From IMG/VR virus record IMGVR_UViG_3300045988_163332, positions 1 through 37,329 of that record: a stretch of 37,329 bases of DNA. One strand, 5' to 3'. This DNA comes from a virus. Positions 1 through 37,329 of the stretch are shown one piece after another. Positions within the stretch are counted from its first letter, which is position 1. Each line of letters starts with the position of its first letter. Under the pieces are notes generated by a model. It did no database searches. It saw only the letters and a program-made list of their open reading frames with translations, and had not been told where the DNA came from. The position numbers and the translations under genes were made by a program.

Positions 1-89
1 ATTTTTTTTTAAAAAATCTCTTGACGTCCCAGTGGGATAGGGTTAATATTTTCTTAACTTGCAAGTGAAAAAATACTTGACGGTCTCAG
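1..89. repeat. Left copy of the 89-bp direct repeat, identical to 37241..37329. Terminal direct repeat of a linear genome or circular-contig overlap.
   Basis: Bases 1..89 are base-for-base identical to 37241..37329. The window ends inside the palindrome ggtctcagagacc, which is complete at 82..94. Confidence 0.9.
21..49 (+). promoter_or_regulatory. Sigma-70-like promoter P1: TTGACG, 17-nt spacer, TAATAT.
   Basis: -35 ttgacg at 21..26, 17-nt spacer, -10 taatat at 44..49. Lies inside the terminal repeat upstream of gene 134..418. Confidence 0.6.
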
Positions 90-105
90 AGACCAGATGT
101 ATGAT
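77..105 (+). promoter_or_regulatory. Sigma-70-like promoter P2 (TTGACG, 17-nt spacer, TATGAT). A 13-bp perfect palindrome ggtctcagagacc (82..94) sits in its spacer and is a candidate operator.
   Basis: -35 at 77..82, -10 at 100..105. The palindrome has 6-bp arms around one central base. The promoter runs across the repeat boundary at 89. Confidence 0.55.
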
Positions 106-133
106 AAGAAAAAACTAATAGGAGAGTGATATA

Positions 134-418
134 ATGAAAGCTTATAGTGTTAGCGAAATAATAGAAGAAGCAGAGGTTTACAATGACTTAGGTGTTTATA
201 CTCTTGAAGATTTAAAAGAGATGACAGAAGAATTTAGTAACAGTAAAAACTTTTTGTCAGATGATGAAATTTTTGCAATAAGAGAAGCATTGGCTGCTGA
301 AGATGGAAAGAGTTTAATTTGGATATTGCTAAATAATGATATTATTGTTTTTGACAGTTATTGTCCACATGAATTAAGAGATAATATTGTAATTAGTGAA
401 TTTGAAATAGAAGATTAA
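134..418 (+). CDS. Strongly acidic 94-aa hypothetical protein. First gene at the left genome end; candidate DNA-mimic or anti-restriction protein.
   Basis: ATG at 134 with SD aggagag 7 nt upstream. About 24 Asp/Glu against about 7 basic residues. Two tandem strong promoters upstream and a hairpin terminator downstream. Confidence 0.6.
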   Translation: MKAYSVSEIIEEAEVYNDLGVYTLEDLKEMTEEFSNSKNFLSDDEIFAIREALAAEDGKSLIWILLNNDIIVFDSYCPHELRDNIVISEFEIED

Positions 419-457
419 TACATGAGCCTTTTAAATCGTTTTTAAGAGGTTTAAAAA

Positions 458-490
458 AGAGAGGTATATATTTACCTCTCTTTTTGTTTT
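458..490. terminator. Bidirectional rho-independent terminator between gene 134..418 (plus) and the holin gene (minus).
   Basis: Stem agagaggta / tacctctct with loop tatatt. T-run on the plus strand and A-run upstream, so it reads as a terminator on both strands. Confidence 0.6.
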
Positions 491-525
491 GACCTACCCT
501 ATTCTAAGGCTCATAAGCTCACATT

Positions 526-981
526 TTATTTTTTCTTGTATTCTTGATATTGAACTAATACTTTTTTTATTTTCTCTGGAATAGGTACTCCACAGATACT
601 TGCATTTTCTAATATAGAAAGTCCCTCATTTGAAATAAAAACTCCTATTGTTAATGTCTTTATTCCTAATTTACTACCAAGTAGTATGTCTAAGTGGTAT
701 GCTAATACTATAACTAGAATTATCATAACCTTTTTTAGCATTCCTATTATACCTAGTTTACTATTAGCAGTACAAGTAATGTAAGCTTTGATAACTCCAG
801 ATATATAATCAACTGCCATAAGTATAAGTAATATTCTTAAAGCTTCATCTTGCCCACCTGTAATCATAAAGATAAAGGCTACTAAACTTCCTATTCCTAT
901 TGCTACACAATTACTTAAAATTTTTATTACATCAACCAACAACCAAAAGAAATCTGTTGCTATTCTAGTAAAATCTCCCAT
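526..981 (-). CDS. Holin of the TcdE / phage_holin_4_1 family.
   Basis: 151 aa with several hydrophobic segments and a charged C-terminus. The C-terminal block SILENASICGVPIPEKIKK matches the TcdE-family motif SILKNMCLCGLPVPKRLKEK. Last gene of the lysis cassette. Confidence 0.75.
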   Translation of the reverse strand: MGDFTRIATDFFWLLVDVIKILSNCVAIGIGSLVAFIFMITGGQDEALRILLILMAVDYISGVIKAYITCTANSKLGIIGMLKKVMIILVIVLAYHLDILLGSKLGIKTLTIGVFISNEGLSILENASICGVPIPEKIKKVLVQYQEYKKK

Positions 982-1245: not shown

Positions 1246-1650
1246 TTAATCTTCCATCAACTCAAAATGTCCTCCATCAAATGAGCCTCTTGCTATCTCA
1301 TCATCATATTTGCCATTCATATTCCAATCTCCACCCCATCTAACTTTAATACCAAGTTTTTCAGCCTCTTCTTTTAGTACATCAGCAATTTTTTTAAATC
1401 CCTCTAAGTCGTTCCAATCTTTAAATGGGTATGGAATAAAATCAAAAGCATATGATTTAGGTTTTTTACAATGCTTAGATTTATTTGTCCAGCTAGTTCC
1501 TTTAGCTTGATTTTCCTTTGCCTCTTCCTCTGTTCTAGCTCCATCTATTATAGAGAAGTCTATTCTTTTTATAGCTTGGCTTGCTATTAATTTTAATCTA
1601 TCATCACACTCTTCTAAGTGTTTTAAACTTCTTTCACTAAATTTAGGCAT
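1246..1650 (-). CDS. Endolysin: single-domain zinc peptidase of the M15 family (L-alanyl-D-glutamate or VanY-like peptidase), with no cell-wall-binding domain.
   Basis: 134 aa with the M15-type C-terminal motif W..GGDW....D..HFEL (GGDWNMNGKYDDEIARGSFDGGHFELMED). Size and architecture match T5-type single-domain endolysins. Lies beside the holin. Confidence 0.7.
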   Translation of the reverse strand: MPKFSERSLKHLEECDDRLKLIASQAIKRIDFSIIDGARTEEEAKENQAKGTSWTNKSKHCKKPKSYAFDFIPYPFKDWNDLEGFKKIADVLKEEAEKLGIKVRWGGDWNMNGKYDDEIARGSFDGGHFELMED

Positions 1651-3035: not shown

Positions 3036-3914
3036 CTAATCTGTTATTATTAAAGTCCAACCATTAATTATTAAACTTCCACAAGTTAAACCAGAGTTAG
3101 TAACTATTGCTCCTAATACTGTTAGATTTTGTGTAATAGTTCCACCAGATGTTGGAAGTTTTGTATTATCAGCTATTGTAATATTGGCACTACCATTAAA
3201 ACTAACTCCGTTGATAGTTCTAGCAGTTTGCAATTTTGTAGCAGTAGCAGAGTTTCCTATACAAACATCAGCACTATCAGCAGTTGTAGCACTCTTTGCT
3301 TTATCTTCTTTACCTAATTTATTATCTAATAAATTATTAGTTTCAGTTTTAGTATATATATCTGGTTTATTTATTAGTTTTTCATAATCAGTAGTTCCAG
3401 GTTGACCGCTTTGTCCTGGTATCCCTTGTTGACCTCTAGGGGCAGTAAAATCATATGTGCTACCATTAGTTAAAGTCACAGTATAAACATTTCCACCATC
3501 TTCATTAGTATTCTTAAATGTTATACTTTTTACTCCTACTCCATCAGCTCCTTTAGGACCTTGAATACCTTGCTCTCCAGTATCTCCCTTAGGTCCTTGA
3601 GGACCAGTATTTCCAGTTATACCTTGTTCCCCTTTATCTCCCTTAGGTCCTTGAATACCTTGAGGACCTTGGGGACCTTGTGGTCCAGTATCTCCCTTAT
3701 CTCCTTTAGGACCTTGAATACCTTGCTCTCCAGTATCTCCTTTAGGACCTTGAGGACCTTGTATTCCTTGCTCTCCTTTTGCACCAGGTAAACCTTGAAT
3801 ACCTTGTTCCCCTTGTATTCCTTGTTCTCCTTTAGGACCTTGAGGTCCGATATCTCCTTGTTCTCCTTTAGGACCTTGAGGACCTACAACATTACCTATA
3901 ATTAATTTTGGCAT
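3036..3914 (-). CDS. Collagen-like repeat protein, a second tail fibre or fibre subunit.
   Basis: Residues 11..125 are continuous Gly-X-Y triplets (nt about 3540..3884), mostly GPQ, GPK, GEQ and GIQ. The C-terminal part is globular and rich in Thr, Asn and Gly. Confidence 0.6.
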
Positions 3915-3927
3915 AATTAAAACCTCC

Positions 3928-5307
3928 TTATTCTAAAATTTCTAATACCAAATTCCCATCTTCATCTATTGAAAAATTTGGTTGAGTATCATTCTCGTTA
4001 TAATATACAACTAAGTTTCCATCTTCTATTTGGAATATGTACTGACTATTTATAGGAGTGATTACAGCAGTTCCATTATCTCCTTTATCTCCCTTATCTC
4101 CTTTAGGACCTTGTATTCCTTGAGGACCTTGGGGTCCGATATCTCCCTGCTCTCCCTTAGGTCCTTGTTCTCCTTGTATTCCTTGAATGCCTTGTTCGCC
4201 TTTTAGTCCTTGAAGTCCTCTTTCTCCTTGAATACCTTGTTCCCCTTGTATTCCTTGAATACCTTGAGGACCTGTTATTCCTTGAGGACCTTGAGGTCCA
4301 ACTTCTCCTTGTATTCCTTGCTCTCCTTGAATACCTTGAGGTCCATTTTCCCCTCTTTCTCCTTGGTCTCCTTTATCTCCTTTGAATCCTCTTTCTCCTC
4401 TTTCCCCTTTCGGTCCTTCTGGTCCATCATTGCCTTGAATACCTTGAGGACCTCTTCGTGCTAATAATTCTCCTATAATTTCTCCGTCTTCACGGTAGAC
4501 TGTATAGACGTTTCCTTCTGGTAATTCTTTATTAAAACCAACACTTGCTATTGAGTACCCTCTTTCTCCTTTTAAATCTTGCATATGATAGTCTATATAA
4601 TCTTGGATTTCTTTTTCTGCTTCTTCTATTTTTTCTTGTGTATATTTATCTAATTTTAAATAACTATCTGTTTTAAGATAATTATCAATAATTTCTTTTA
4701 AATCTTTTTCTAATTGAATAACTAGCTCTTTTACTCTATTATCCAAATCTTCAAGTAATATTTTTTTTGTATCTTCATAAATCTTATTGAGCAACTCTTG
4801 ATATTTCTCAAATAGTGTAGTTACAGGATAAGTAGCTATCCCATCATCTGACATATACCAGATAGAACCTTTTGGTAAATCTGGTAAACCTAATTGTTTG
4901 GGTATTCCACTATCTACAAATAATTGAGATTTTATAATTTCTTTTTCTGTTCCAAGTATTGCAGCTTTTATTTTAGTAAACATATTATTTAGATTTTCTG
5001 GTGTAATATCTCCTGTACTACTAAAAGTAAAATCTAAATCAAAATAAGGTTCAGACTTAACTATCTTAATATCTGTGTAATCATTCCATATGTCATCTGG
5101 GTAGTTAGTAAAATCAATGTTTCCAGCATTGTATGTGTAATAATCTTTAGGTATAAGGAATATAAAAGCTGTGCTAGTTATAGGATTTTGTTTTTTCCCA
5201 TAGACTTCACAACTTGTCATTAAGTCTGAAAAGCTAGTAGCATACTGTTGTCTATTCTCTTCTAACTTAAAATACTCTTTTTTAAAATTTAACATTTGCT
5301 TAAACAC
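3928..5307 (-). CDS. Tail fibre protein with an internal collagen-like triple-helix region.
   Basis: 459 aa. The N-terminal part is globular. Residues 286..412 are Gly-X-Y repeats (nt about 4072..4452), followed by a short C-terminal beta-rich tail. Confidence 0.6.
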
Positions 5308-5315: not shown

Positions 5316-6827
5316 TTAATAATAAGTTGTTAGTGGTCCATCAAAACTATCTTTTAGATATATGCTAGCAAATATCATAGCAGTTCTAAATGAATCTGCG
5401 TCATCAGAAGCTTTATCATTTGCGTCGTGGTCTGGTATATCTAAGTAACAGTTCATGGACTTGTTATATTTTTTGACATAGCCTCCTAATTGTATAACTC
5501 CTATGTTACACTCGTTATTATCTATCTCTACATTTTCAAACTCCTTTCTTATATAGTTGATTTGATTTATTAATGTAGTCATATCATTTTTAGCTAGCTC
5601 TGTCTTAGATAGAGTTCTTACATCACTAAAATAATTTAATCTTATGTAGTCACTTCTTTTTGAAGTTGCACTCCATTCCTCGACATCTCCATCATGTGGT
5701 AGTACCATAGTAGGCTGCATATAGTACCCATTATCTTTGCACCATTTTTTTATATATTGGCAGCAGTGGTCTGGTCCTTGTCCAGTAACTCTATAATGTT
5801 TTATGAATCTAATTCTATTATTGTGAGGGTTCTTTTGAAAAAACCATAATACTGTATGGTCCCTTTTTCCTATATCCCAAGCAACATATAAAGGTTGTTG
5901 TGTCCAGAAATGCCCTGTGTATATTTGAGTATATCTTCTACTTACACTATCCAATAACTCTTCATACCTACCATAAAACTTTATCCTTTCATCTTCATAA
6001 GCTTTTTTTAGTTGTTCTCCATACCAAGCACCAACTAGATGAGTATTGATTTTACATTCCCACTCTTGAGCGTATGAATCGGGGTCCATAGTAAGAGCTT
6101 GTTTTCTAAGTTCTTTATCATTTATTACCCTCTCCCCTTTATAGTTCAAGGAATCTTTTCCAGATTGAATATCTACATACCACATATCTTTAATTTCTTT
6201 ATTTTCTGGTTTACTTAGGATAGTGAAGTAATCTATAAAAAGTTTAGTAAACCAATTATATTTACCCCTTGGTGTAGAGATAAATATTACAAAACCAAAG
6301 TCTGTGTTATTGATAACCATATCAACTGCAGGTTTCATATATTGATAGAACTTTTCTTTTATAAGTGCTGCCTCTGTATAAATAACTCCTCTAGCTCCTA
6401 CCCCTACACTTGCGTCTGGGTTATCTCCTCCACGAAAGAAGATTTTTGCTCCGTTAAATAAAGTTACACTCCAATCTGATTTATTAACTTTAGGTCCTCT
6501 TGGATTTGCTAGTATTTCATCTGGTATAAGATTTTCAAGTAAAGGTAACCCGTTTAATGTCTTCCCATCTACAACTATCTCCTTTACCTGTCTAAAATAT
6601 GGTGCATAGATATAGTAGTTTCCTGGGTGTTGAATAGCTGCTAGTATCATAATGAGTAGTGAAATAAAGTCCTTTCCATATCTTCTATGAGCCATTAGTG
6701 CAAAATACTTTTTCTTATTTTCCAAGACATTGTCCAGAAGTTCTTTCTGTCCTTTGTGTAGATATTTAATAACTTTTTTATAACTGATGGTTACTCTTCT
6801 TTTTGCTGCTCTTCCTAAAAAATTCAA
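5316..6827 (-). CDS. terL: Terminase large subunit (ATPase plus RNaseH-like nuclease).
   Basis: N-terminal deviant Walker A (AHRRYGKDF, nt about 6669..6680). A Walker B-like block follows ([12 protein letters not shown]). Nuclease motifs in the C-terminal half include [21 protein letters not shown] and [13 protein letters not shown]. Its location, separated from the small subunit gene, is unusual. Confidence 0.6.
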
Positions 6828-7217: not shown

Positions 7218-7246
7218 GGGGAGTGTTGCAGCACTCCTCCTTTTTT
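7218..7246. terminator. Bidirectional hairpin terminator just downstream of the stop of the 1633-aa gene.
   Basis: Stem ggagtg / cactcc with loop ttgcag. T6 on the plus strand (7241..7246) and T5 on the minus strand. Confidence 0.55.
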
Positions 7247-21659: not shown

Positions 21660-21768
21660 TGTTACCCCCTTTTTGCTTATAATCTAATTAAAACATTCAA
21701 GTCTTTAAATGCTTTAACTAGAGCATAAGCTCTAGCTTTGTGTGTGTTGTAAGTTATTTTAAGAAAGG

Positions 21769-21984: not shown

Positions 21985-21996
21985 ATTTATTCCTCC

Positions 21997-24748: not shown

Positions 24749-24962
24749 TTTCTTCTTTTACCTCCTTCGTAAATATCTCCATGTATAAACTGTTTACTCC
24801 AGTTATTTCCTTCACTTTCCCTACTGTATCAACTCCTTTGTCGTTCATGATAGAAACTCTATTGAGTTCGAGCATTAAGTATAGTTCGATTAGTCTTTTT
24901 AAAGCTCTATCATCTCTATATCTTCTTTTTAACTCTTCGTACTCTTTTCTCTCTTCTGTCAT
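24741..24962 (-). CDS. Small hypothetical protein (73 aa).
   Basis: ORF with overlapping stop and start codons. Confidence 0.4.
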   Translation of the reverse strand: MTEERKEYEELKRRYRDDRALKRLIELYLMLELNRVSIMNDKGVDTVGKVKEITGVNSLYMEIFTKEVKEEND

Positions 24963-29221: not shown

Positions 29222-29422
29222 TTATTTGCTATTTAATACCTTTTCTATTTTCACTAAAATTTCATTGCTTGGGACTTGGTTATTTCTTAATCTCAACATA
29301 ATATTTGCAAATGAAGCTTTAGGAATCCCAGCAAGTTCTGCAAATTCTGCCTGTGTTATTTTTTTTCTTTTTTTAAATTTTTCAATTTCATTTATAATCA
29401 AATCAGTTATTTTTTTAATCAC
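29222..29422 (-). CDS. XRE-family helix-turn-helix regulator (Cro-like, 66 aa).
   Basis: HTH block ITQAEFAELAGIPKASFANI. GTG start. Confidence 0.6.
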   Translation of the reverse strand: MIKKITDLIINEIEKFKKRKKITQAEFAELAGIPKASFANIMLRLRNNQVPSNEILVKIEKVLNSK

Positions 29423-29539: not shown

Positions 29540-29568
29540 ATAAAAAAGAGGAGAAAATTTTCTCCTCT
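29540..29568 (-). terminator. Hairpin terminator after the CI and secreted-protein operon.
   Basis: Stem agaggag / ctcctct with loop aaaatttt. A U-run follows on the minus-strand RNA. Confidence 0.55.
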
Positions 29569-29621
29569 TAGTATATTTTTTTATTTTTGGTTTTTGGCTA
29601 ATAATTCTTATAAAAATATTT

Positions 29622-30181: not shown

Positions 30182-30832
30182 CTAATAATATCTCATAACA
30201 CTTCTTAATCTTCCAATGACTCTAAGCTCTGATTGGTCCATTATTTTAATTTTAGGGTAATATGGATTTATACTTTTTAAAAAAATATCTCCCTCATCTT
30301 GTACGAATTTTTTTAAATATACTGCTCCTTGATAATTGACAACTATAATTTTATTTAAAATACAGTCTATGTTTTTAGTGTCAACTATAACTATATCTCC
30401 ATCTTTTATCTCTGGTTCCATAGAATCTCCAGCAACTCTTATAGCTATATTTCCTGTTTTTGCTAAATCTTCTGGCACTTCTATATATTCCAGAGTTCCA
30501 TAATCATTAAAACAACCATATCCAGCTGAAGCTTGAATATCTGGATAAAATGGGATCTTTTTTTGATTAACATTTTTTATTTGCTTTAATTGTAAAAACT
30601 CTTCTTTTAAACTCTCTGGTGCCTTTTCTAAATCTACTAATTTTAATAACTGAGCATAACTTTCTTTATCCATTATTTGTCCTAATTGCTCAATCGTTGT
30701 TGCTGGAATCTTTCTTTTTCCATTTTCAATATTTGTAATAAAAACTTGACTACATAGCAATTTATCGGCTAAATCGACTGCTCTTAAATTATTTTTCTTT
30801 CTAAATTCCTTAATAAATTCTCCTGCTGTCAT
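30182..30832 (-). CDS. CI-type repressor: N-terminal XRE HTH fused to a LexA/S24 autopeptidase domain.
   Basis: HTH block LRAVDLADKLLCSQVFITNIENGKR. S24 motifs GDSMEP and a K further downstream (VAGDSMEPEIKDGDIVIVD). Confidence 0.8.
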   Translation of the reverse strand: MTAGEFIKEFRKKNNLRAVDLADKLLCSQVFITNIENGKRKIPATTIEQLGQIMDKESYAQLLKLVDLEKAPESLKEEFLQLKQIKNVNQKKIPFYPDIQASAGYGCFNDYGTLEYIEVPEDLAKTGNIAIRVAGDSMEPEIKDGDIVIVDTKNIDCILNKIIVVNYQGAVYLKKFVQDEGDIFLKSINPYYPKIKIMDQSELRVIGRLRSVMRYY

Positions 30833-30862
30833 ACTTTTTCAACTCCTTTTATAACTAATTTG

Positions 30863-30891
30863 ATTATACAATAAAAAAAATAACTTGACAA
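30863..30891 (-). promoter_or_regulatory. Repressor promoter (minus strand): TTGTCA, 17-nt spacer, TATAAT.
   Basis: -10 is the reverse complement of attata at 30863..30868. -35 is the reverse complement of tgacaa at 30886..30891. Confidence 0.5.
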
Positions 30892-30913
30892 ATAACTTTC
30901 TTGGTTATATAAT
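30885..30913 (+). promoter_or_regulatory. Early rightward promoter: TTGACA, 17-nt spacer, TATAAT (perfect consensus). Its -35 box overlaps the divergent repressor promoter face to face.
   Basis: -35 ttgaca at 30885..30890, -10 tataat at 30908..30913. Repeated AAATAACT and TTATAT(A/G)AT motifs flank it. Confidence 0.6.
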
Positions 30914-30996
30914 CATATCAAATAGATAACTTAGTTAGTTATATGATAATCCTAAAAAAACATAAAAGCAAGTAGAAAATATAAGGAGTTGGTAAT

Positions 30997-31443
30997 ATGT
31001 ATAAATACTTTAACAGTAACGAGGATTTAAAAAAACAATATAGAGAATTATGTAAGAGATTACACCCAGACCACGGCGGAAATGAAGAGGACTTCAAAGA
31101 GATGATGGCAGAGTATGAAAGAATACAACTTGAGGGATTTAAACAACAAGCAAGGGAAGCAGGGGAAGAGATAGCCCCAGAGGTTATGGAGATACTAAAG
31201 AAAATAATACATTTCCATGGTTTAGAGATTGATGTTGTAGGTTCTTGGATATGGGTATCTGGTAATACTTTCTTATACAAGGAACAGTTAAAAGAACTTG
31301 GTTTTAGATGGAGTGCTAAAAGAAAAAAATGGTACTTTGGAGAGAAAAAAGGAAAAGGAACATTCAAGGGAGATTATGAAGAGTTAAAACAAAAATATGG
31401 TTGGCAAAGAGTACAAGGAAGCAACCTACAAGCGATAGCATAG
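30997..31443 (+). CDS. J-domain (DnaJ-like) protein. First gene of the early operon.
   Basis: N-terminal J-domain with the HPD motif (KQYRELCKRLHPDHGGNEEDFKEMMAEYERI). The C-terminal 90 aa are unassigned and Trp rich. Confidence 0.7.
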   Translation: MYKYFNSNEDLKKQYRELCKRLHPDHGGNEEDFKEMMAEYERIQLEGFKQQAREAGEEIAPEVMEILKKIIHFHGLEIDVVGSWIWVSGNTFLYKEQLKELGFRWSAKRKKWYFGEKKGKGTFKGDYEELKQKYGWQRVQGSNLQAIA

Positions 31444-31513
31444 TTAAGTTTTTATAGGTTCCCTAAGAGCCTTGGGGAACTTGTTAAAAACTTAAAAGGG
31501 GGCGGTCAATATG
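31443..31513 (+). repeat. Copy 1 of a triplicated early intergenic unit of about 70 bp, with a 23-bp palindrome (31458..31480) followed by an RBS and atgact.
   Basis: Sequence agtttttataggttccctaagagccttggggaacttgttaaaaacttaaaagggggcggtcaatatgact. Very similar to the copies at 32474 and 33191. Confidence 0.7.
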
Positions 31514-31711
31514 ACTGATGAACAAATTAGATTTTTTATAAAAGATTATATTTTACCAGAGATTAGAAAATACAAATCTGAAAGTATAGAAGTATTTTAC
31601 AAAGAAAAAAATGGTGTCTATACAGTTAGTATAGATGGCAAAGAATTTAAAGATTCTGATATTAAATCTTGCCTAGAAGAAGCAAGAGGATATTTTAAGG
31701 GGTGGTTCTAA
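31511..31711 (+). CDS. Small hypothetical early protein (66 aa).
   Basis: ATG directly downstream of repeat copy 1. Confidence 0.5.
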   Translation: MTDEQIRFFIKDYILPEIRKYKSESIEVFYKEKNGVYTVSIDGKEFKDSDIKSCLEEARGYFKGWF

Positions 31712-31890
31712 TGTCACAAGATGTAATGTTCTTAAAATATATCAATGAGAAATGGGGAGTTCTTACAGTAAGAAGATTTAAAAAATTTTATATAGTAAAC
31801 GCTGGAGAGTTCCACGGATATGGTTTAACAGTATCTGAAGCGATAGCAAATTTAGCACTTAATAATCAAGAGGAGGGAAAACTATGTTAG
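31711..31890 (+). CDS. Small hypothetical early protein. The ATG at 31711 overlaps the upstream stop; the ORF-track GTG at 31702 is less likely.
   Basis: taATG overlap with the stop of the upstream gene. Confidence 0.45.
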   Translation: MSQDVMFLKYINEKWGVLTVRRFKKFYIVNAGEFHGYGLTVSEAIANLALNNQEEGKLC

Positions 31891-32159
31891 ATAAAGAATT
31901 ATTAGAAGGATTTGAAACAATGCAACAATTACAAGATGATGGACTAATTGATTCTTATAATTATAACTCGAAAACAGGAGATTTTATGGTATTTTCTGGA
32001 CTTGGTAAAAAAGAAGTTAAGTTCCAGGTAGATATGGATAGTATGATGGAGTTTTTAGAAGAATGGGAAAAAGAAGTTGAAGAAGCTTTCCAAGATAAAA
32101 AAAGAGAAGAACAAGACAGAGAAGCAGCTTACTGGGCAGTCCAAGGGGTTAGATATTAA
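31884..32159 (+). CDS. Acidic hypothetical early protein (91 aa).
   Basis: ORF with RBS gaggaggg. Confidence 0.5.
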   Translation: MLDKELLEGFETMQQLQDDGLIDSYNYNSKTGDFMVFSGLGKKEVKFQVDMDSMMEFLEEWEKEVEEAFQDKKREEQDREAAYWAVQGVRY

Positions 32160-32226
32160 TGATAGCTTGGATAAAACATATATTAAAATTCAAAATTAAA
32201 TATAGCAAAATGTAGGGGGAATAAAA

Positions 32227-32475
32227 ATGTTAGCAGTAATGATGGAGAATTTAAAAGAAAAATACAGTATTAAAAATTTAGTTTGGGAGATAAAAAACAA
32301 TATAGTTTTCTTTAGTGGAGAACTTAAAAAAAATATAGTTGCTGGATATGTAGGAGAAAAACCAGTAAGTTATGAGAAAAAATTAGATTTTAATAGCTTT
32401 AGGGTAGCAGATGAAAAAGTAGAAAAAGAAATTGATGACTTTTTCCAAATGCTTGAAAATGTTTTTAATAAATAA
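32227..32475 (+). CDS. Small hypothetical early protein (82 aa).
   Basis: ORF with RBS taggggga. Confidence 0.5.
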   Translation: MLAVMMENLKEKYSIKNLVWEIKNNIVFFSGELKKNIVAGYVGEKPVSYEKKLDFNSFRVADEKVEKEIDDFFQMLENVFNK

Positions 32476-32548
32476 TTTAGTTTTTATAGGTTCCCCAAGA
32501 GCCTTGGGGGACTTATTAAAAATTAAATTGGAGGTGGTCTTTATGACT
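32474..32548 (+). repeat. Copy 2 of the triplicated intergenic unit (palindrome 32490..32512).
   Basis: Sequence tttagtttttataggttccccaagagccttgggggacttattaaaaattaaattggaggtggtctttatgact. Confidence 0.7.
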
Positions 32549-32680
32549 GATGTTAGATTAGAAAGACTTGATAACTACTTTGATGAGGAGTTAGAAGAAG
32601 TTAGAGAAGCTGCAGCAGATATGACAGAAAAAGAGCTTAGAGAATTTTTAGAACTTTTAAATATTGAGGAGTGGTTTTAA
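32543..32680 (+). CDS. Small acidic protein (45 aa) starting MTDVRLERL. The ORF-track start at 32432 is a spurious upstream extension through the repeat.
   Basis: The ATG at 32543 is preceded by ggaggtgg inside the repeat unit. Confidence 0.45.
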   Translation: MTDVRLERLDNYFDEELEEVREAAADMTEKELREFLELLNIEEWF

Positions 32681-33192
32681 TGGCAAATATAATAAATTTA
32701 TTAGAGGACAAATTAGCATTAAATGAACTTTGGGAAAATTCCATTGATGAGAACACAGGAGAAATAAAAGAGTGTGAAGCTTTAGAGGCTTTAACAAAAG
32801 AAATAGAGCAAGATTTGAGCAGTAAAACAGGTAGAATTATACAGGTATTTCAAAATAATAAAGCACAAATAGAAGTGCTGGACAAGGAAATAAAAAGGCT
32901 TGAAGCTAGAAAAAAATCTTTAGAGAATAAAGATAAAAATTTTAAAAACTTTTTAAAATATACTCTTGAAAGAATAGGAGTAAAAAAAATAGATACTATC
33001 TTTGGAATAATAGGAATAAAAAATAATCCTGCAAGTGTAGAGCTTATAGACAAAGACAAAATACCTGCAGAATTTAAGACAATAAAATATGTTGAAGATA
33101 TTTCAAAAACTGAAATTTCAAAAGCTTTAAAGGCTGGGGTAGAAGTTCCAGGAGCAGAACTTAAACAAAGTACAAGTTTATATATTAAATGA
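32680..33192 (+). CDS. Gp157-like protein (Sipho_Gp157 family), of the kind commonly paired with phage annealing proteins.
   Basis: 170 aa and coiled-coil rich. The ATG at 32680 overlaps the upstream stop. It sits just upstream of the Rad52-like gene, as in other Firmicute phages. Family call from memory. Confidence 0.4.
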   Translation: MANIINLLEDKLALNELWENSIDENTGEIKECEALEALTKEIEQDLSSKTGRIIQVFQNNKAQIEVLDKEIKRLEARKKSLENKDKNFKNFLKYTLERIGVKKIDTIFGIIGIKNNPASVELIDKDKIPAEFKTIKYVEDISKTEISKALKAGVEVPGAELKQSTSLYIK

Positions 33193-33265
33193 TTTAGTTT
33201 TTATAGGTTCCCCAAGAGTCTTGGGGTACTTATTAAAAATTAAATTGGAGGTGGTCTTTATGACT
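33191..33265 (+). repeat. Copy 3 of the triplicated intergenic unit (palindrome 33208..33229).
   Basis: Sequence atttagtttttataggttccccaagagtcttggggtacttattaaaaattaaattggaggtggtctttatgact. Confidence 0.7.
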
Positions 33266-33883
33266 AAAGAAAAATTTCAAGAAATGTATTTAAAAGATTT
33301 AACAGGTATGATAGAAACAATAGACACAGGAAAAAGAAAGCTATCATATATTAGCTGGGCTAATGCTTACAAAATGGCTATGGAGCAAGACCTATCAATG
33401 AGTTATGAAATATTAGAAGATTTAGAGGGGTTTCCTTTATTCTCAAGAGGGGATTGCCACTTTGTAAAAACTACTGTTACTATGTTTGGAGTAACTAAAA
33501 AAATGATGTTACCTATTATGGACAATAGACATAATTCTATAAGCAAACCTAACAGTAGAGATATAAACGACAGTATAATGAGATGTCTTGTAAAAAATAT
33601 AGCAATGTTTGGTATAGGACTATCATTATACACTGGAGAGGATTTAGAAAAGTATAAGGAATCTAAAGAAGATAAAGAGGTTAAGGAAGTTGAAGAGCAA
33701 ATTACACCAGAAGAGAGGTCTAAATTTATAGAAGTTATAAACAAAAAATACTCTAAAGAGGATATAGACAAGGCTATATACTTAGTTAAGGAAAATGGTA
33801 GATTTGAATTTAATATCTACACAGCAAGTAAAAAAGAATTAAACTATTTAAAAGCAACTTTAAGAAGTTTAAAAACTGCATAA
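33260..33883 (+). CDS. Rad52-like single-strand annealing protein (Sak family).
   Basis: The ATG at 33260 follows the repeat RBS. YISWANAY and DSIMRCLVKNIAMFGIGLSLY resemble the Rad52 N-terminal-domain motifs YIS and D.lkRaL.sFGnaLG. Acidic C-terminal tail. Confidence 0.5.
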   Translation: MTKEKFQEMYLKDLTGMIETIDTGKRKLSYISWANAYKMAMEQDLSMSYEILEDLEGFPLFSRGDCHFVKTTVTMFGVTKKMMLPIMDNRHNSISKPNSRDINDSIMRCLVKNIAMFGIGLSLYTGEDLEKYKESKEDKEVKEVEEQITPEERSKFIEVINKKYSKEDIDKAIYLVKENGRFEFNIYTASKKELNYLKATLRSLKTA

Positions 33884-34035: not shown

Positions 34036-34375
34036 GTATAGAGGTACAAAATCCAATTTTTATAGGTACAACATCAAAATTAATGTACCTTTAAAAACTA
34101 CAAAATCCAAATTATAACTACATGTCCTTTTATTATTGTAGTTAATTTATTTCCTATTTAGAAGAATATCTTTATATTCTTGTTTCTTTTAATATATTTC
34201 GACACCTCTCAAACCTTTAATTTTAGAGGGCTAGAGAAGACAAAAAACGACAAAATCCAGAGTATTTAACTACAAAATCCAAAGCAAAAAACGACAAAAT
34301 CCAGAGTATTTAACTACAAAATCCAAAATATAGAACTACAAAATCCAAAATTTAACGACATTATTTATTGACTAT
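34036..34375. repeat. Iteron-type replication origin. About 8 copies of ACAAAATCCA(A/G), including a 45-bp unit repeated twice in tandem. Inverted repeats and an AT-rich unwinding stretch lie alongside.
   Basis: Copies at about 34044, 34094, 34250, 34272, 34295, 34317, 34339 and 34352. The sequence caaaaaacgacaaaatccagagtatttaactacaaaatccaaag occurs twice in tandem. Inverted repeats aggtaca..tgtacct and actaca..tgtagt. AT-rich stretch at 34140..34200. Confidence 0.65.
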
Positions 34376-34386: not shown

Positions 34387-35544
34387 ATGATAAACTTTTC
34401 TATAAAAGGAGGGGTAAGCTTGGGAAAGGAAAACTACAATTTGATACACCACAAAGATTTTCATAAACTGCAACTGCAGAATTACAATGTAAAAGAAAGA
34501 GCAATATTTTTAACTCTATGTTTGAAACTTATGGAACAGGAAGATGATGTTGTTAGTTTAAAAATATCAGAACTAACAAAAATATCCAATTATTCTCCAA
34601 GAAAAAAAGGGGATAATATAATACTTTTTCTTAAAGAATTAAATGACAAATTAAAAACTATGGAAATAATACAAACTAAAGAAAATGGAGATTTTAAAAG
34701 TATAACATTGTTTCCAACTTTTGAAGTCAACCAAGATTTTGGAGAGGTAAAAATAAGAGTAAATCCAGATTATAAATATCTTTTAAATCATTTGCAACCA
34801 CCATTTACAATACAAGATGTAGTTGAATACTCTGGACTTAAAAGTGGATATTCTCAACTGATGTATAGCATTTTAAAAAATTGGAATAAAGCTAAGAAGA
34901 TTAGTTTTAAATTAGATGACTTTAAAAAAGAGATGGGAATACCTGAAAATTATAGAATTTGTGATATAGATAGCAGGGTTATAGCTCCAATAACATCAGA
35001 GCTTTCAGTTTTATTTCATGGGCTAAAGGTTGAAAAAATAAAAAATGGAAGGTCGGTAGCTGGGTTTGAGTTTACCTGGAAAGATAACAAGGTTGATGAT
35101 GTAGTAGTTGATGAAGAGGAAATAGAGATTTCAGAAGAGTTGCTATCAGCTATTGAGAAAGCAGAGAAAAACAGATTTATAAAACCTTTCTTGACTGATG
35201 ATAATATAATAAAACTTTTAGATAAATTTAGCCAAGAGCAATTAGAAAAAGGATTGAAAGCTGCTTATGATTTAATTAAAACAGAATTTACAAGTCTTAA
35301 TTATTTGATAAAAGTTATTGAAGATAGTTTGAATAAACCTAAAAGAAAAATAGTTATAAGAAGAACTAAGGAAGCAGAAAAAATAAAAGAAGTTGAAGAG
35401 CCAGTAGTCAAGAAAAAAACAACTCCACTAACTAATGAAGAATATCAAAATGCTATGAAGATATATCAAGCTACTGGAGAAGATTTTGGTTATGAACCAG
35501 AGGAAGTAAGAGAGTATATAAAAAAATATAAGGATTTAATATAG
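34387..35544 (+). CDS. rep: Plasmid-type replication initiator (iteron-binding Rep). Start may be the ATG at 34387 or the TTG at 34430.
   Basis: 385 aa, immediately downstream of the iterons. Strong RBS aaggaggggtaagc before the TTG at 34430. Followed by parA. Confidence 0.55.
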   Translation: MINFSIKGGVSLGKENYNLIHHKDFHKLQLQNYNVKERAIFLTLCLKLMEQEDDVVSLKISELTKISNYSPRKKGDNIILFLKELNDKLKTMEIIQTKENGDFKSITLFPTFEVNQDFGEVKIRVNPDYKYLLNHLQPPFTIQDVVEYSGLKSGYSQLMYSILKNWNKAKKISFKLDDFKKEMGIPENYRICDIDSRVIAPITSELSVLFHGLKVEKIKNGRSVAGFEFTWKDNKVDDVVVDEEEIEISEELLSAIEKAEKNRFIKPFLTDDNIIKLLDKFSQEQLEKGLKAAYDLIKTEFTSLNYLIKVIEDSLNKPKRKIVIRRTKEAEKIKEVEEPVVKKKTTPLTNEEYQNAMKIYQATGEDFGYEPEEVREYIKKYKDLI

Positions 35545-35553
35545 GGGGGTAAA

Positions 35554-36312
35554 ATGAAAATAATATCATTTATAACAGAAAAAGGTGGCACTGGTAAGAC
35601 TACTGGTGCCAGAGAAGTTGCTGGGGTACTATCTCTAGTTCATAATAAAAAAGTTTTGCTTATTGATTGTGACTTTCAACAAAATCTAACTGAGAGTTTA
35701 ATAGAAGCAGACCAAGAAAAAAATATATTTAGAGCCATAAAAGAGAAAGATTTAAAAGGAAATATAATTCCTATTGAAAGAGATGGAAAACATATATTAG
35801 ATTTAATACCTGCAAGTCTTAATTTAAAGGACTTGGAATATAAAAAAGACAGTGTTGATATGGAAATGATTTACCTAGATTTAAAAAAAGGACTAGAGCA
35901 ACTCCAAGAATATGACTATATAATTATAGATTGTAGACCAGATATGAGAGCAATAGAAAGGGCTGTGTTAAAGTGCAGTAATTATGTTATCACTCCTGTT
36001 GAAGCTCATCTATTTAGTTTTAGAGGGTTTGAATTATTAGAGAACTTTATACAAGCTCTTAAAAAGGATTTAAACACTCCATTCATTCATTTTGGATATA
36101 TAAACAGGCTACAAAATGACAAAGAGATATTAGAAGCCACTGAAGATGTCAGAAGTTCTTTTGATAACATATTAGATACTCCTATAAGAGATAACCTTAA
36201 AATATTTAAAGCCTCACAGACAGGACATTTTATAATAGAATATAGTTCTACATCAAATGGGGCTAAGGATTTTAAAGCTCTTACAAAGGAGTTGTTGAAT
36301 AAATGGCAATAA
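35554..36312 (+). CDS. parA: ParA/Soj-type partition ATPase.
   Basis: Deviant Walker A KGGTGKTT near the N-terminus (MKIISFITEKGGTGKTTGA). 252 aa. Confidence 0.85.
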   Translation: MKIISFITEKGGTGKTTGAREVAGVLSLVHNKKVLLIDCDFQQNLTESLIEADQEKNIFRAIKEKDLKGNIIPIERDGKHILDLIPASLNLKDLEYKKDSVDMEMIYLDLKKGLEQLQEYDYIIIDCRPDMRAIERAVLKCSNYVITPVEAHLFSFRGFELLENFIQALKKDLNTPFIHFGYINRLQNDKEILEATEDVRSSFDNILDTPIRDNLKIFKASQTGHFIIEYSSTSNGAKDFKALTKELLNKWQ

Positions 36313-36968
36313 AAATAAATAGAAAACCTATAATTTTAAAAAAGAAAGAAAATACAGAAGTAATTATTCCAGAAAAAAATGACATAGAAGATATATTGAA
36401 ATACGATTATAACAAATTGGAAAATTTTTCAGATGATGATAAAAATCAATTAATTATATTTGAGAAAAGTATTATCACTAAAAAAGAAAATATCTCTTCT
36501 TTAGCACTACAAATAGGGCAAAATTTGGAAGAGGCAAGAAAACTATTTGATAGATACTCTGAAAATCCAAGTTCATATATGGAGTGGTACCAAGCTTTAG
36601 GATTTAATAAAGACCAAGTATCACTACTTAGAGGGAGATATAAGTTATCTTTAAGCTATCCACAATACAACAATTTAATTTCAGACTTTTCAGACAGAGA
36701 AGTAAAAGCTTTAGTGAATAAAAAGGTTAATGTAAGAATCCTTGAGAATATTTTATCTTCTGGAATAAGAACAGATAAAGAAATAAGAAAAGCTATTTCG
36801 AGCATGCTCGAAATAGAAGATGCCGAGATAGTAGAGGAATCTGAAAAAGATAAGCTGGTATCCAGACTATCGGAGGTAGAGGCGAAAATCAGAAAATTAG
36901 AGGAAGAGTTGAAAGAGTTGAAAACTGTTAAGGCTGAACTAAAAGAAAAGATAAAGGGGTTGAGCTAA
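36303..36968 (+). CDS. ParB-like or centromere-binding partner (221 aa) with a C-terminal coiled-coil.
   Basis: Overlaps the parA stop. Assigned by position only. Confidence 0.4.
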   Translation: MAIKINRKPIILKKKENTEVIIPEKNDIEDILKYDYNKLENFSDDDKNQLIIFEKSIITKKENISSLALQIGQNLEEARKLFDRYSENPSSYMEWYQALGFNKDQVSLLRGRYKLSLSYPQYNNLISDFSDREVKALVNKKVNVRILENILSSGIRTDKEIRKAISSMLEIEDAEIVEESEKDKLVSRLSEVEAKIRKLEEELKELKTVKAELKEKIKGLS

Positions 36969-37225
36969 TGAAATTAAAGGATTTATTAAAAGGAAATAGA
37001 GAAAATATTCAAAGTATAACTATAACAAATGGGTTGATAACATATTTTAAAAATGATGTAGAAGTTTTAGATATTATAGACATACAAGATGGATATAAAA
37101 TTATTGTTGGGGATATTACTTTAAAATTAGATGAGTTCCAAGCGAGTATAGAAAGTTATTATAGTACAGATAAAATATTTTATTTTGACTTAATTGATTT
37201 TAAGGTTGATTTAAAATTAAAATAG
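36968..37225 (+). CDS. Small hypothetical protein (85 aa), last gene before the terminal repeat.
   Basis: ATGA overlap with the upstream gene. Terminator immediately downstream. Confidence 0.4.
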   Translation: MKLKDLLKGNRENIQSITITNGLITYFKNDVEVLDIIDIQDGYKIIVGDITLKLDEFQASIESYYSTDKIFYFDLIDFKVDLKLK

Positions 37226-37250
37226 AGGAATTTTTCCTCTATTTTTTTTT
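37224..37250 (+). terminator. Rho-independent terminator abutting the start of the right terminal repeat.
   Basis: Stem agagg / cctct with loop aattttt, followed by T9. Confidence 0.6.
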
Positions 37251-37329
37251 AAAAAATCTCTTGACGTCCCAGTGGGATAGGGTTAATATTTTCTTAACTT
37301 GCAAGTGAAAAAATACTTGACGGTCTCAG
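37241..37329. repeat. Right copy of the 89-bp direct repeat. Contains a complete copy of the first left-end promoter.
   Basis: Identical to 1..89. It begins right after the hairpin terminator at 37224..37250. Confidence 0.9.

What the first reader, a model, noticed from the sequence alone, without database searches (positions are those of the whole stretch)
1..37329. Complete temperate phage-plasmid: T7-like virion gene order, 89-bp direct terminal repeats, plasmid maintenance module
Three things are visible directly in the sequence:
- Identical 89-bp repeats at the two ends.
- An iteron origin followed by Rep, ParA and a ParB-like gene, with no tyrosine integrase anywhere.
- A 30-kb virion block on the opposite strand, in the order portal, scaffold, capsid, tube-like proteins, a 178/694/1633-aa trio, a fibre gene and lysis genes. 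This order parallels T7-like podoviruses, whose genomes also have direct terminal repeats.
A LexA-like CI repressor and a Cro-like gene indicate a temperate lifestyle. The element is most likely maintained as a low-copy plasmid prophage. Temperate, plasmid-maintained podovirus-like elements in AT-rich anaerobes are poorly described.
Basis: partly seen in the sequence, partly recalled or inferred. Interest (0 to 1): 0.7.

Follow-up and report, generated by a model that had tools for sequence, protein, structure and literature searches.

The report
Podovirus-type phage-plasmid of gut Fusobacterium
This is a complete 37,240-bp circular genome of a dormant-capable virus with a T7-shaped particle that most likely persists in human-gut Fusobacterium as a low-copy plasmid, while the "terminal repeats" seen at its ends are only an assembly artefact.

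Summary
The 89-bp identity of the two ends is real but is an assembler circularisation overlap. The same element, 100% identical over every stretch retrieved, occurs in other assemblies of the same gut sample with lengths 37,240+55, +73, +109 and +127 bp and different break points. The one such overlap that could be checked directly is a 55-bp repeat lying elsewhere. The unit genome is a 37,240-bp circle.

The plasmid module is confirmed: six iterons, a Rep3 initiator and ParA. The "ParB-like" 221-aa protein belongs to no known ParB family. There is no integrase, but a small serine recombinase was missed.

The T7-like virion is supported. Portal, nozzle and large terminase are homologous to Legionella phage LME-1 and Carin-1. 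The 694-aa protein folds like T7 gp15. There is no phage RNA or DNA polymerase, sheath or tape measure.

Relatives are common in human-gut metagenomes. No contig among 259 collection blocks exceeds 50 kb, and the one oversized contig examined is a hybrid with another phage-plasmid.

The Rep–Par–resolvase set is shared with a myovirus-type Fusobacterium element. The host is probably Fusobacterium mortiferum-like.

Verdict: a new, rare podovirus-type member of the phage-plasmids. The terminal-repeat claim is rejected.

The parts
1..89 (.). Assembly overlap, identical to 37241-37329. It is an ordinary intergenic segment: the terminator T-run followed by two tandem sigma-70-like promoters for the 94-aa ORF.
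   Evidence: The segment is 81% identical to a promoter region of the myovirus-type elements.
134..418 (+). 94-aa accessory ORF lying in a variable region.
   Evidence: Missing from the more divergent relatives (junction blast); present in the contigs identical to the window. No family hit.
526..981 (-). Holin.
   Evidence: PF05105, E 1e-32. The nearest named homologs are Fusobacterium mortiferum prophage holins at 72-73% identity.
1246..1650 (-). Endolysin (M15-like peptidase).
   Evidence: phrog_465, E 6e-38.
3036..5307 (-). Two collagen-repeat tail fibre genes (3928-5307 and 3036-3914).
   Evidence: PF01391 Collagen and tail-fibre PHROGs. The Gly-X-Y coding repeats appear.
5316..6827 (-). 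Large terminase subunit.
   Evidence: phrog_2, E 2e-27. phmmer against the LME-1 large terminase gives 8e-23.
7245..12146 (-). 1633-aa gp16-like internal virion protein, assigned by position only. It has an HEIEH motif at 10101-10115.
   Evidence: Synteny after the gp15-like gene. No family hit. Motif located.
12146..14230 (-). 694-aa gp15-like internal virion protein B.
   Evidence: AF2 model with pLDDT 78.5. The top PDB hits are T7 gp15 entries (7k5c_A at 3.8e-4, 9jyy_G, 6yt5_A). There are 56 BFVD hits, and the named ones are mostly 'internal virion protein B'.
14230..14766 (-). 178-aa gp14-like protein, assigned by position only.
   Evidence: Synteny and size. No hits.
14782..16578 (-). Tail nozzle (T7 gp12-like).
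   Evidence: phrog_376, E 2e-28. PDB 8ck1 'Tail Nozzle', E 3e-4. LME-1 nozzle, E 6e-7.
16588..17091 (-). Adaptor (T7 gp11-like). The support is weak.
   Evidence: phrog_394 tail protein, E 4e-5, plus position.
17256..17954 (-). Small serine recombinase, a probable plasmid multimer resolvase.
   Evidence: PF00239, E 2e-20. It is 99% conserved in the eight relatives whose loci cover this region. It is 70% nt identical to the resolvase next to the rep-par cassette of the myovirus-type elements.
18057..22464 (-). Block of small non-structural genes. It includes a MazG-like gene (19248-19937), an SSB-like gene (19949-20458), a Tad2-like gene (21769-21984) and a PF21825 gene (21997-22464).
22805..24067 (-). 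Major capsid protein.
   Evidence: Position. A 46%-identical allele in a relative hits PF19821 Phage_capsid_2 at 28.5 bits, above the cut-off of 25.
24086..24748 (-). Scaffold protein, assigned by position only.
   Evidence: Lies between portal and capsid. No hits.
24959..26467 (-). T7-type portal.
   Evidence: PF12236, E 5.5e-29. PDB 9efk (554-aa chain, the length of the LME-1 portal), E 2.7e-17, and 8ck0, E 1e-4.
27231..27719 (-). Candidate small terminase subunit.
   Evidence: Inference only. The N-terminal motif EEKFISSFLVCKNGLKAMQAAGIP resembles small-terminase helix-turn-helix regions. No family hit.
29222..29422 (-). 66-aa Cro/CI-type HTH protein at the head of the late arm, preceded by a promoter.
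   Evidence: HTH_3 at 25.8 bits, above the cut-off of 23. Promoter read from the sequence.
29546..29569 (.). Bidirectional intrinsic terminator separating the CI operon from the late arm.
30182..30832 (-). LexA-like CI repressor (HTH plus S24 self-cleaving peptidase).
   Evidence: PF00717, E 3e-24, and PF01381. phrog_4.
30851..30942 (.). Divergent promoters with clustered ATAACT half-sites, which are candidate operators. A second cluster lies at 29405-29503.
   Evidence: A 12/12 promoter at 30885-30913. These are the two densest ATAACT clusters in the genome, and an 18-nt motif is shared by these two sites only.
30997..33883 (+). Early arm: J-domain protein, small ORFs, Gp157 (32671-33192) and Sak annealase (33260-33883). 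Three long hairpins are also present.
34097..34347 (+). Iteron origin: five tandem 22-bp iterons plus one upstream copy.
   Evidence: A relative with a divergent Rep allele has different iterons.
34387..35544 (+). Rep3-family initiator. The true start may be at 34420.
   Evidence: PF01051 plus PF21205. 37-41% identical to Cetobacterium and Fusobacterium plasmid Reps. Insulated by a terminator at 33892-33911, with a promoter at 34368-34396.
35554..36312 (+). ParA partition ATPase.
   Evidence: AAA_31, E 3e-35. phrog_164, E 4e-47. NCBIfam PrgP and ParA_partition hits, both below their curated cut-offs.
36303..36968 (+). 221-aa putative centromere-binding adaptor from a new family.
   Evidence: Overlaps the parA stop and co-varies with ParA alleles. 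All-alpha fold with a C-terminal coiled coil and a basic disordered N-tail. No known fold or family.
36793..36816 (.). 24-bp perfect palindrome, a candidate centromere lying inside the adaptor gene.

Best explanation
The window is one full turn, plus an 89-bp assembler overlap, of a 37,240-bp circular genome. It belongs to a temperate phage-plasmid from the human gut, and its host is probably Fusobacterium (F. mortiferum group).

Dormant state (inferred). The element replicates as a low-copy circular plasmid.
- A Rep3 initiator binds 22-bp iterons immediately upstream of its own gene.
- ParA and a novel 221-aa adaptor segregate copies. The adaptor possibly acts through a 24-bp palindrome inside its own gene.
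- A small serine recombinase resolves multimers.
- The rep-par operon has its own promoter and is insulated from the early lytic arm by a terminator.
- A LexA-like CI repressor sits between two divergent arms and probably binds ATAACT-type operators at both arm promoters.

Induction (inferred). CI self-cleaves after DNA damage, and the two arms are expressed.
- The + strand arm carries the Sak/Gp157 recombination genes.
- The 30-kb - strand arm starts with a small Cro-like HTH protein.
- It then encodes a T7-type particle: portal, scaffold, HK97-type capsid, adaptor, nozzle, a gp14/15/16-like ejection trio, large terminase and collagen-like fibres.
- It ends with endolysin and holin.

The element has no phage RNA polymerase or DNA polymerase, so it depends on host transcription and replication. 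The true packaging termini are unknown.
For: Circular unit and artefactual repeat.

Replicon: iterons; Rep3; Rep allele and iteron sequence change together in relatives; terminator and promoter insulating the rep operon.

Partition: ParA. ParA and adaptor alleles co-vary at 99/54/52% and 100/62/50% identity. The palindrome keeps its dyad symmetry across three alleles.

Resolvase: PF00239. It travels with the rep-par cassette into a myovirus-type element.

Lysogeny switch: S24 repressor, promoters and terminator, operator clusters.

No integrase: and the precomputed Pfam lists.

Never in host context:
- The 694-aa protein clusters have longest contigs of 37.6 kb or less.
- The identical adaptor protein is listed in 259 collection blocks, none with a contig over 50 kb.
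- The 44.9-kb contig examined is a hybrid with the myovirus-type element; a 49.4-kb contig was not examined.
- Related chromosomal F. mortiferum holins lie on contigs up to 2.8 Mb. This shows that integrated prophages do assemble into long contigs in this collection.

T7-like virion: portal, nozzle, large terminase, portal and nozzle against LME-1, gp15 fold, capsid. LME-1 has a T7-like particle shown by cryo-EM (PMC12407071).

Host.
Against: - No isolate genome carries the element. Two scans of 185,579 species-representative genomes found nothing. Plasmid maintenance and the host are therefore inferred, not shown.
- Circular assembly is also expected from virion DNA that has terminal repeats or circular permutation.
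- The adaptor has no similarity to any known centromere-binding protein.
- Only one candidate centromere copy exists.
- gp14-like, gp16-like, scaffold and small terminase rest on position alone.
- TM-scores of the gp15 matches are low (0.16-0.28).
- The closest characterised relative, LME-1, integrates through host Xer without an integrase. Absence of an integrase therefore does not exclude integration.
Confidence: 0.75

Rival explanations
1. The genome is a linear T7-type molecule whose physical ends lie at window positions 1 and 37329, each carrying an 89-bp direct terminal repeat.
For: The ends are identical over 89 bp. T7-like phages do have direct terminal repeats (established knowledge). 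The large terminase is related to that of a T7-like phage.
Against: Other assemblies of the same element have lengths that imply overlaps of 55, 73, 109 and 127 bp, matching the k values in their names where given, at different break points. All contigs retrieved across the junction cross it with a single copy of the 89-mer. NODE_404 has a checked 55-bp repeat at 34285-34339. The 89-mer boundaries cut through a terminator tail and a promoter spacer. Divergent relatives also run straight across this point.
Confidence: 0.03
2. The element is an integrating temperate phage. It would insert into the host chromosome using host Xer recombinases at a dif-like site, as LME-1 and CTX-phi do, or using its small serine recombinase. 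The circular contigs would then be excised or replicating forms.
For: The closest characterised relative, LME-1, lacks an integrase and integrates through a dif-like site (PMC9765430, PMC12407071). A serine recombinase is present.
Against: No contig over 50 kb among 259 collection blocks carrying the identical adaptor protein, and none with host flanks among the contigs read. Integrated F. mortiferum prophages do appear on Mb-scale contigs. A full Rep3-iteron-ParA-adaptor set is conserved and diversifies in alleles, as expected for a selected plasmid function. The recombinase is resolvase-sized at 232 aa.
Confidence: 0.1
3. The element is an essentially lytic or pseudolysogenic podophage. Rep3 and ParA would serve only lytic replication and positioning, with no stable plasmid state.
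For: There is no direct evidence of carriage in cells. Some virulent phages encode ParA-like ATPases (established knowledge).
Against: A LexA-like self-cleaving repressor sits at a divergent promoter region, with allele swapping of the immunity region among relatives. The rep-par operon is insulated. A multimer-resolvase candidate is shared with the plasmid cassette. The iteron-controlled Rep3 type is a copy-number-limited plasmid system (established knowledge).
Confidence: 0.07

Closest known systems
Phage-plasmids such as P1, N15 and SSU5 (Pfeifer et al. 2021, PMC7969092)
   Same: A temperate phage gene set sits on the same replicon as a plasmid initiator, a partition ATPase and a resolution recombinase. 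There is no integrase. Phage genes are conserved while plasmid and immunity alleles vary among relatives.
   Different: The virion is T7-like and short-tailed. In that survey 95.9% of typed phage-plasmids were siphoviruses or myoviruses, few were podoviruses, and no Fusobacterium element is mentioned in the main text. At 37 kb it is smaller than P1 or SSU5. Its replicon is a Rep3/iteron type related to Fusobacteriaceae plasmids. Its partition adaptor has no known family.
Legionella phage LME-1 (KT271770; PDB 9efk; PMC12407071)
   Same: It is the best sequence match among solved structures for the portal (2.7e-17). Large terminase (8e-23) and nozzle (6e-7) are also homologous. The T7-like structural gene order is the same. 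It is temperate and has no phage RNA polymerase and no integrase.
   Different: LME-1 integrates at a dif-like site through host Xer, uses a RepO-like initiator and lacks ParA and iterons. The host is a gammaproteobacterium. No other proteins are detectably similar.
Coliphage T7 and Autographiviridae
   Same: Portal family PF12236, adaptor and nozzle, a gp15-like fold, and the order portal-scaffold-capsid-tail-core-fibre-lysis.
   Different: There is no single-subunit RNA polymerase, DNA polymerase or primase-helicase. The large terminase precedes the fibres. The element is temperate, and terminal repeats are not demonstrated.
Myovirus-type Fusobacterium elements (Myoviridae sp. ctZ2t4; loci L011 and L034-L039)
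   Same: They carry a homologous Rep3-ParA-adaptor cassette (68% nt identity over 2.5 kb), iteron region, resolvase (70%) and a shared promoter segment. The host genus is probably the same. One hybrid contig (L029) exists.
   Different: They have contractile-tail genes (baseplate J, sheath initiator) and a second RepA_N protein. They also carry a tyrosine recombinase amid Gp10_C fibre fragments. They are 41-49 kb long.
Prototypic crAssphage as a linear phage-plasmid (PMC10983915)
   Same: It is a short-tailed gut phage proposed to persist as a plasmid.
   Different: It is a different virion lineage (crAss-like, about 97 kb), is linear, and infects Bacteroidota.

Membership tests
Phage-plasmid | A full complement of virion, packaging and lysis genes. 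| tested here: met
   Portal, capsid, nozzle, large terminase, fibres, endolysin and holin.
Phage-plasmid | Plasmid replication and/or partition genes on the same replicon. | tested here: met
   Rep3_N plus Rep3_C, iterons and ParA.
Phage-plasmid | Extrachromosomal maintenance in lysogens. | not testable with these tools
   Indirect support only. There is no integrase, and no contig over 50 kb occurs among 259 collection blocks. The one oversized contig examined is a hybrid with another element.
Autographiviridae (T7-like phages in the strict sense) | A phage-encoded single-subunit RNA polymerase. | tested here: not met
   The only ORFs over 503 aa are the 598-, 694- and 1633-aa virion proteins. 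The 598- and 694-aa proteins are assigned as nozzle and gp15-like. The 1633-aa protein has no family hit and sits at the gp16 position. No polymerase family hit was found.
Autographiviridae (T7-like phages in the strict sense) | T7-type portal, adaptor, nozzle and internal core proteins. | tested here: met
   PF12236, E 5.5e-29. Nozzle. gp15 fold. The adaptor is weak, and gp14 and gp16 rest on position only.
Autographiviridae (T7-like phages in the strict sense) | Direct terminal repeats at the physical genome ends. | tested here: inconclusive
   The 89-bp repeat is an assembly overlap. The true termini cannot be read from assemblies.
Rep3 / iteron theta replicon | A Rep3 WH1 plus WH2 initiator with directly repeated iterons next to its gene. 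| tested here: met
   Allele-specific iterons occur in a relative.
ParABS partition (ParB/Spo0J or RHH ParG-type centromere binder) | A Walker-type ParA ATPase. | tested here: met
   AAA_31, E 3e-35; phrog_164, E 4e-47.
ParABS partition (ParB/Spo0J or RHH ParG-type centromere binder) | A ParB-family or ribbon-helix-helix centromere-binding protein. | tested here: not met
   The 221-aa protein has no Pfam, NCBIfam or PDB-sequence hit. The Foldseek PDB search gave no hit below E = 4.
ParABS partition (ParB/Spo0J or RHH ParG-type centromere binder) | A centromere site. | tested here: inconclusive
   A single 24-bp palindrome lies inside the adaptor gene, and its symmetry is preserved across three alleles. 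Binding was not tested.
Lambda-type SOS-inducible immunity | A repressor with an HTH and an S24 self-cleavage domain at a divergent promoter region. | tested here: met
   Operator assignment is inferred.
Small serine recombinase (resolvase/invertase) | A catalytic Resolvase N-terminal domain in a protein of about 200 aa. | tested here: met
   PF00239, E 2.4e-20, 232 aa. No res site or invertible segment was identified.

The most novel reading that the evidence does not exclude
The 221-aa protein founds a new family of partition adaptors. Its centromere would be a 24-bp palindrome embedded in its own coding sequence, with constant outer arms (CTATTTCG/CGAAATAG) and an allele-specific symmetric centre (CATG, AGCT, CCGCGG) that sets incompatibility. 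Together with Rep3/iterons and a resolvase, it would form a portable maintenance cassette. That cassette has been exchanged between a T7-like podovirus and a myovirus, creating two phage-plasmid lineages in gut Fusobacterium.
Probability: 0.35. Interest if true: 0.65.

Novelty: new member of a known kind. Interest (0 to 1): 0.5.

Why it matters
Few phages of Fusobacterium are characterised, although the genus matters for colorectal cancer and gut disease. Phage-plasmids with short-tailed T7-type particles are rare in surveys. This element is complete and recurs in many human-gut metagenomes, including the HMP sample and Hadza/Nepal samples.

It offers three things:
- a compact native Rep3/Par replicon that could serve as a Fusobacterium vector backbone;
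- a natural case of one maintenance cassette serving two virion types;
- a candidate new centromere-adaptor pair.

The finding also gives a practical warning. Terminal direct repeats on metagenomic contigs mark circular closure, not virion ends.

Tried and rejected
- Megablast of the window against 50,697 phage records and 72,556 plasmid records gave no match.
- Portal tblastn against plasmids hit only Legionella LME-1.
- Two scans of GTDB species-representative genomes, one with the portal and one with the 694-aa alignment, found no relatives. The suggested host-assembly check was therefore impossible.
- An exact 36-nt piece of the 89-mer was absent from IMG/VR.
- Two IMG/VR relatives lacked any terminal repeat.
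- PDB sequence searches gave nothing for the capsid, the 694-aa profile, the large terminase or the adaptor.
- A fold search of the adaptor gave no hit, so I dropped 'ParB-like' as a family claim.
- Rfam and tRNA scans were empty.
- PADLOC gave only a weak ZorC C-terminal match for the J-domain protein.
- I rejected a tape-measure reading of the 1633-aa protein. It has no tape-measure or sheath hits, and it sits after gp15-like in a podovirus layout.
- I found no evidence for an invertase role of the recombinase at the fibre genes. No flanking inverted repeats or inverted variants turned up in the repeat list and relatives' gene maps already in hand, though I did not search for them specifically.
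- I first suspected that the 44.9-kb contig L029 showed integration. It proved to be a junction with the myovirus-type element.
- One regex error was corrected.

Full report
**1. Terminal repeats**

Positions 1-89 and 37241-37329 are identical. Exact look-ups of window proteins retrieved contigs of the same element from other assemblies of the same human-gut sample (SRR413560 / SAMN00791905).
- Two SPAdes-style contigs are 37,295 bp long.
- A JGI contig is 37,313 bp long.
- Two contigs whose names carry their k values, k109_72942 and k127_37971, are 37,349 and 37,367 bp long.
- These lengths equal 37,240 + 55, 55, 73, 109 and 127. The window is 37,240 + 89.

The retrieved stretches of these contigs (6.5-21.5 kb each) are 100% identical to the circularised window. 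Four of them cross the 37240|1 junction with a single copy of the 89-mer and an exact 800-bp junction.

The SPAdes contig NODE_404 has its own 55-bp terminal direct repeat at window 34285-34339, inside the iterons, and that sequence is single copy in the unit genome. This is the only other overlap I could check directly.

The 89-mer begins in the T-run of a terminator and ends in the spacer of a promoter. Divergent IMG/VR relatives also run through this point and break elsewhere.

The repeat is therefore a circularisation overlap. The genome is a 37,240-bp circle in the assembly graph. Real virion termini cannot be deduced from it.

**2. Plasmid module**

*Origin.* The motif ACWACAAAATCCA occurs six times at 34097-34347, five in tandem at 22-bp spacing. 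Counting one stray match elsewhere, the window has 7 matches against 0.23 expected.

*Rep.* The downstream gene is a Rep3 initiator with WH1 and WH2 domains. It is 37-41% identical to plasmid Reps of Cetobacterium somerae and Fusobacterium varium. A terminator at 33892-33911 and a promoter-like site at 34368-34396 make rep-parA-adaptor an operon separate from the early lytic arm.

*ParA and the adaptor.* ParA is clear. The next gene, of 221 aa, overlaps the parA stop.
- It has no Pfam, NCBIfam or PDB-sequence match.
- Its AlphaFold model (pLDDT 76.5) shows a disordered basic N-tail, an all-helical core and a 40-residue C-terminal coiled coil. It has no structural neighbour.
- It is therefore not a ParB family member. 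It remains the best candidate for the partition adaptor.

*Co-variation among relatives.* Rep identity to the window is 78, 66 or 28%. ParA is 99, 54 or 52%. The adaptor is 100, 62 or 50%. Structural genes stay at 90-100%. The relative with the 28% Rep allele has different iterons, with unit ATAGTGTGAAGTTTTGTCAGA.

**3. Candidate centromere**

A perfect 24-bp palindrome, CTATTTCGAGCATGCTCGAAATAG, lies inside the adaptor gene at 36793-36816. Only one other palindrome of this size exists in the genome, and it is a terminator. Shuffled genomes reach this arm length in 3 of 200 trials.
- The 62% allele has CTATTTCGAGAGCTCTCGAAATAG, which is still a perfect palindrome.
- The 50% allele has CTATTTCGACCGCGGCCGAAATAG, with one mismatched pair.
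- The outer arms are constant, and the centre changes while remaining self-complementary.

This pattern fits a binding site for a dimeric protein better than an RNA hairpin. I propose it as the centromere. That is inference.

**4. Recombinases**

No tyrosine or large serine integrase is present (and the precomputed domains).

It is 99% conserved in the eight relatives whose loci cover this region. It is 70% nt identical to the resolvase that sits 2 kb from the homologous rep-par cassette in the myovirus-type elements. This association favours a role in plasmid multimer resolution.

**5. Virion**

- The portal belongs to PF12236 (E 5.5e-29). Its best solved relatives are 9efk and 8ck0. 9efk is a 554-aa chain, the length of the LME-1 portal, and the window portal matches the LME-1 portal directly (5e-21). 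8ck0 and 8ck1 are most likely the Carin-1 portal and nozzle, by inference from PMC12407071.
- The 598-aa protein matches the 8ck1 nozzle and the LME-1 nozzle.
- The large terminase matches that of LME-1 (8e-23).
- LME-1 has a T7-like particle by cryo-EM, and its gene order parallels T7 (PMC12407071).
- The 694-aa protein was modelled at pLDDT 78.5. In the whole PDB its four best hits are T7 gp15 structures and the core of phage E1004. In BFVD it has 56 hits at E ≤ 0.001, and the named ones are mostly 'internal virion protein B'. TM-scores are low (0.16-0.28), as expected for long flexible helical proteins, so this is moderate evidence strengthened by synteny.
- A 46%-identical capsid allele in a relative passes the Pfam Phage_capsid_2 threshold.
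- The 178-aa, 1633-aa, scaffold and small-terminase assignments rest on position or motif only.

No sheath, tape measure or baseplate genes occur. No RNA or DNA polymerase is encoded. The element builds a T7-like particle but is not an Autographiviridae member.

The virion block is not contiguous. About 5.5 kb of small genes separates capsid from adaptor. These include SSB-like, MazG-like, Tad2-like and PF21825 genes and the resolvase. The large terminase lies between the 1633-aa gene and two collagen-like fibre genes.

**6. Regulation**

CI (HTH plus S24) at 30182-30832 faces the early arm across a 164-bp region. That region holds a 12/12 consensus promoter and an 11/12 promoter on the opposite strand.

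After CI and a 183-aa gene comes a bidirectional terminator (29546-29569). A consensus-like promoter and a 66-aa HTH_3 gene then open the 29-kb late arm.

The two densest clusters of the hexamer ATAACT in the genome coincide with these two promoter regions. An 18-nt motif, ATAACTnATTTGATTATA, occurs only there. I infer that CI represses both arms through these sites and that SOS-triggered self-cleavage induces the phage.

Relatives carry different immunity cassettes at the same place, either S24 repressors or short HTH repressors.

**7. Lifestyle and host**

Clusters of the 694-aa protein have longest contigs of 37.6 kb or less. The identical adaptor protein is listed in 259 collection blocks, none with a contig above 50 kb. 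Complete-size contigs are 36.7-38.0 kb.

The 44.9-kb contig L029 joins the podovirus element to the myovirus-type element with 95-100% identity, so it is not a host flank. A 49.4-kb contig listed was not examined.

The holin's closest named homologs (72-73% identity) are F. mortiferum chromosomal prophage genes on contigs up to 2.8 Mb. Integrated prophages of the likely host therefore do assemble in long context.

All named homologs of the holin are from Fusobacterium, and the nearest Rep homologs are from Fusobacterium or Cetobacterium plasmids. For the adaptor, the two named homologs are one F. mortiferum protein and one uncultured 'Myoviridae sp.'. No isolate genome carries the element, so plasmid carriage and host remain inferences.

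**8. Comparison and novelty**

No near-identical record exists among deposited phages or plasmids. I found no paper on Fusobacterium phage-plasmids. The reference survey reports 95.9% of typed phage-plasmids as siphoviruses or myoviruses and 'few' podoviruses.

The element is a new member of the phage-plasmid class, of an uncommon virion type. Its maintenance cassette is shared with a second morphotype.

**Confidence by step**
- Repeat is an artefact: about 0.97.
- T7-like virion: about 0.9.
- Temperate: about 0.85.
- Plasmid prophage: about 0.7.
- Palindrome is the centromere: about 0.35.

Noticed in passing
window 36793-36816; L008 to L010; L011 and L034 to L038 at the homologous codons: A 24-bp perfect palindrome lies inside the 221-aa gene. 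Its outer arms are constant and its centre changes between alleles (CATG, AGCT, CCGCGG) while staying symmetric. It is a candidate allele-specific centromere.
   Followed up: yes
window 31444-31497, 32473-32530 and 33191-33246 (+ strand): Three copies of a long hairpin with a 25-27 bp stem (dG -25 to -29 kcal/mol, z about -6). Each lies in an intergenic gap of the early operon, directly before an RBS and ATG. No U-run follows, so they are not terminators. They may be RNase III-type processing or stabilising sites. They also show that the true starts of the Sak gene and of the 32432 ORF lie downstream of the listed TTG starts.
   Followed up: partly
window 21769-21984 and 21997-22464 (- strand): A Tad2-like Thoeris anti-defence protein (PF11195, E 2e-23) sits next to a PF21825 protein. 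That family is named crAss001_48-related here and 'Sequestin' in the precomputed tables. Both genes are present or absent variably among relatives.
   Followed up: partly
window 22805-24067, compared with L002, L003 and L018: The major capsid gene exists in two alleles only 45% identical, of 420 aa with a coiled-coil tail and of 344 aa. The flanking portal and scaffold remain 86-99% identical. This is an unusual swap of the capsid gene alone.
   Followed up: partly
L011 and L034 to L039 (41-49 kb contigs); L029: A second, myovirus-type phage-plasmid family carries the homologous Rep3-ParA-adaptor cassette. It is labelled Myoviridae sp. ctZ2t4, and one protein is annotated as Fusobacterium mortiferum. 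It also has a RepA_N gene, and a tyrosine recombinase among Gp10_C fibre fragments on alternating strands, which resembles a fibre shufflon. L029 is a hybrid of the two families.
   Followed up: partly
window 6828-7244: A 417-bp non-coding region between the 1633-aa gene and the large terminase. It contains a terminator, promoter-like sites, two copies of AAGAACGAAAGACTTA and several further hairpins. A gap of similar size is present in relatives. It could be a packaging site or encode a small RNA.
   Followed up: no
window 10101-10115 (- strand), residues 678-682 of the 1633-aa protein: An HEIEH (HExxH) zinc-peptidase-like motif lies in the gp16-like protein. T7 gp16 instead carries a transglycosylase domain. 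This may indicate a different cell-wall-cutting activity during DNA ejection.
   Followed up: no
window 29622-30173 (- strand): A 183-aa protein with an apparent N-terminal signal peptide is co-transcribed with CI. No homolog was found in the relatives compared. It is a candidate lysogeny-expressed accessory gene, for example for superinfection exclusion.
   Followed up: no
window 30997-31443 (+ strand): The first early gene encodes a J-domain-like protein (DnaJ 25.8 bits, below the cut-off). Residues 23-116 match the C-terminal end of Zorya ZorC in PADLOC (E 5e-6). The meaning is unknown.
   Followed up: no
L025 (KT271770.1, PLSDB): Legionella 'Mobile Element-1' is deposited as a plasmid with 35 'hypothetical protein' genes. 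It is the T7-like temperate phage LME-1, so the plasmid database holds at least one unannotated podophage.
   Followed up: yes
window 29200-30990, compared with L003, L004, L026 to L030 and L033: The immunity region is a swap hotspot. Relatives carry either a 216-218-aa S24 repressor or 101-104-aa HTH repressors with different neighbours, and one has a RadC-like gene in the first early position.
   Followed up: partly
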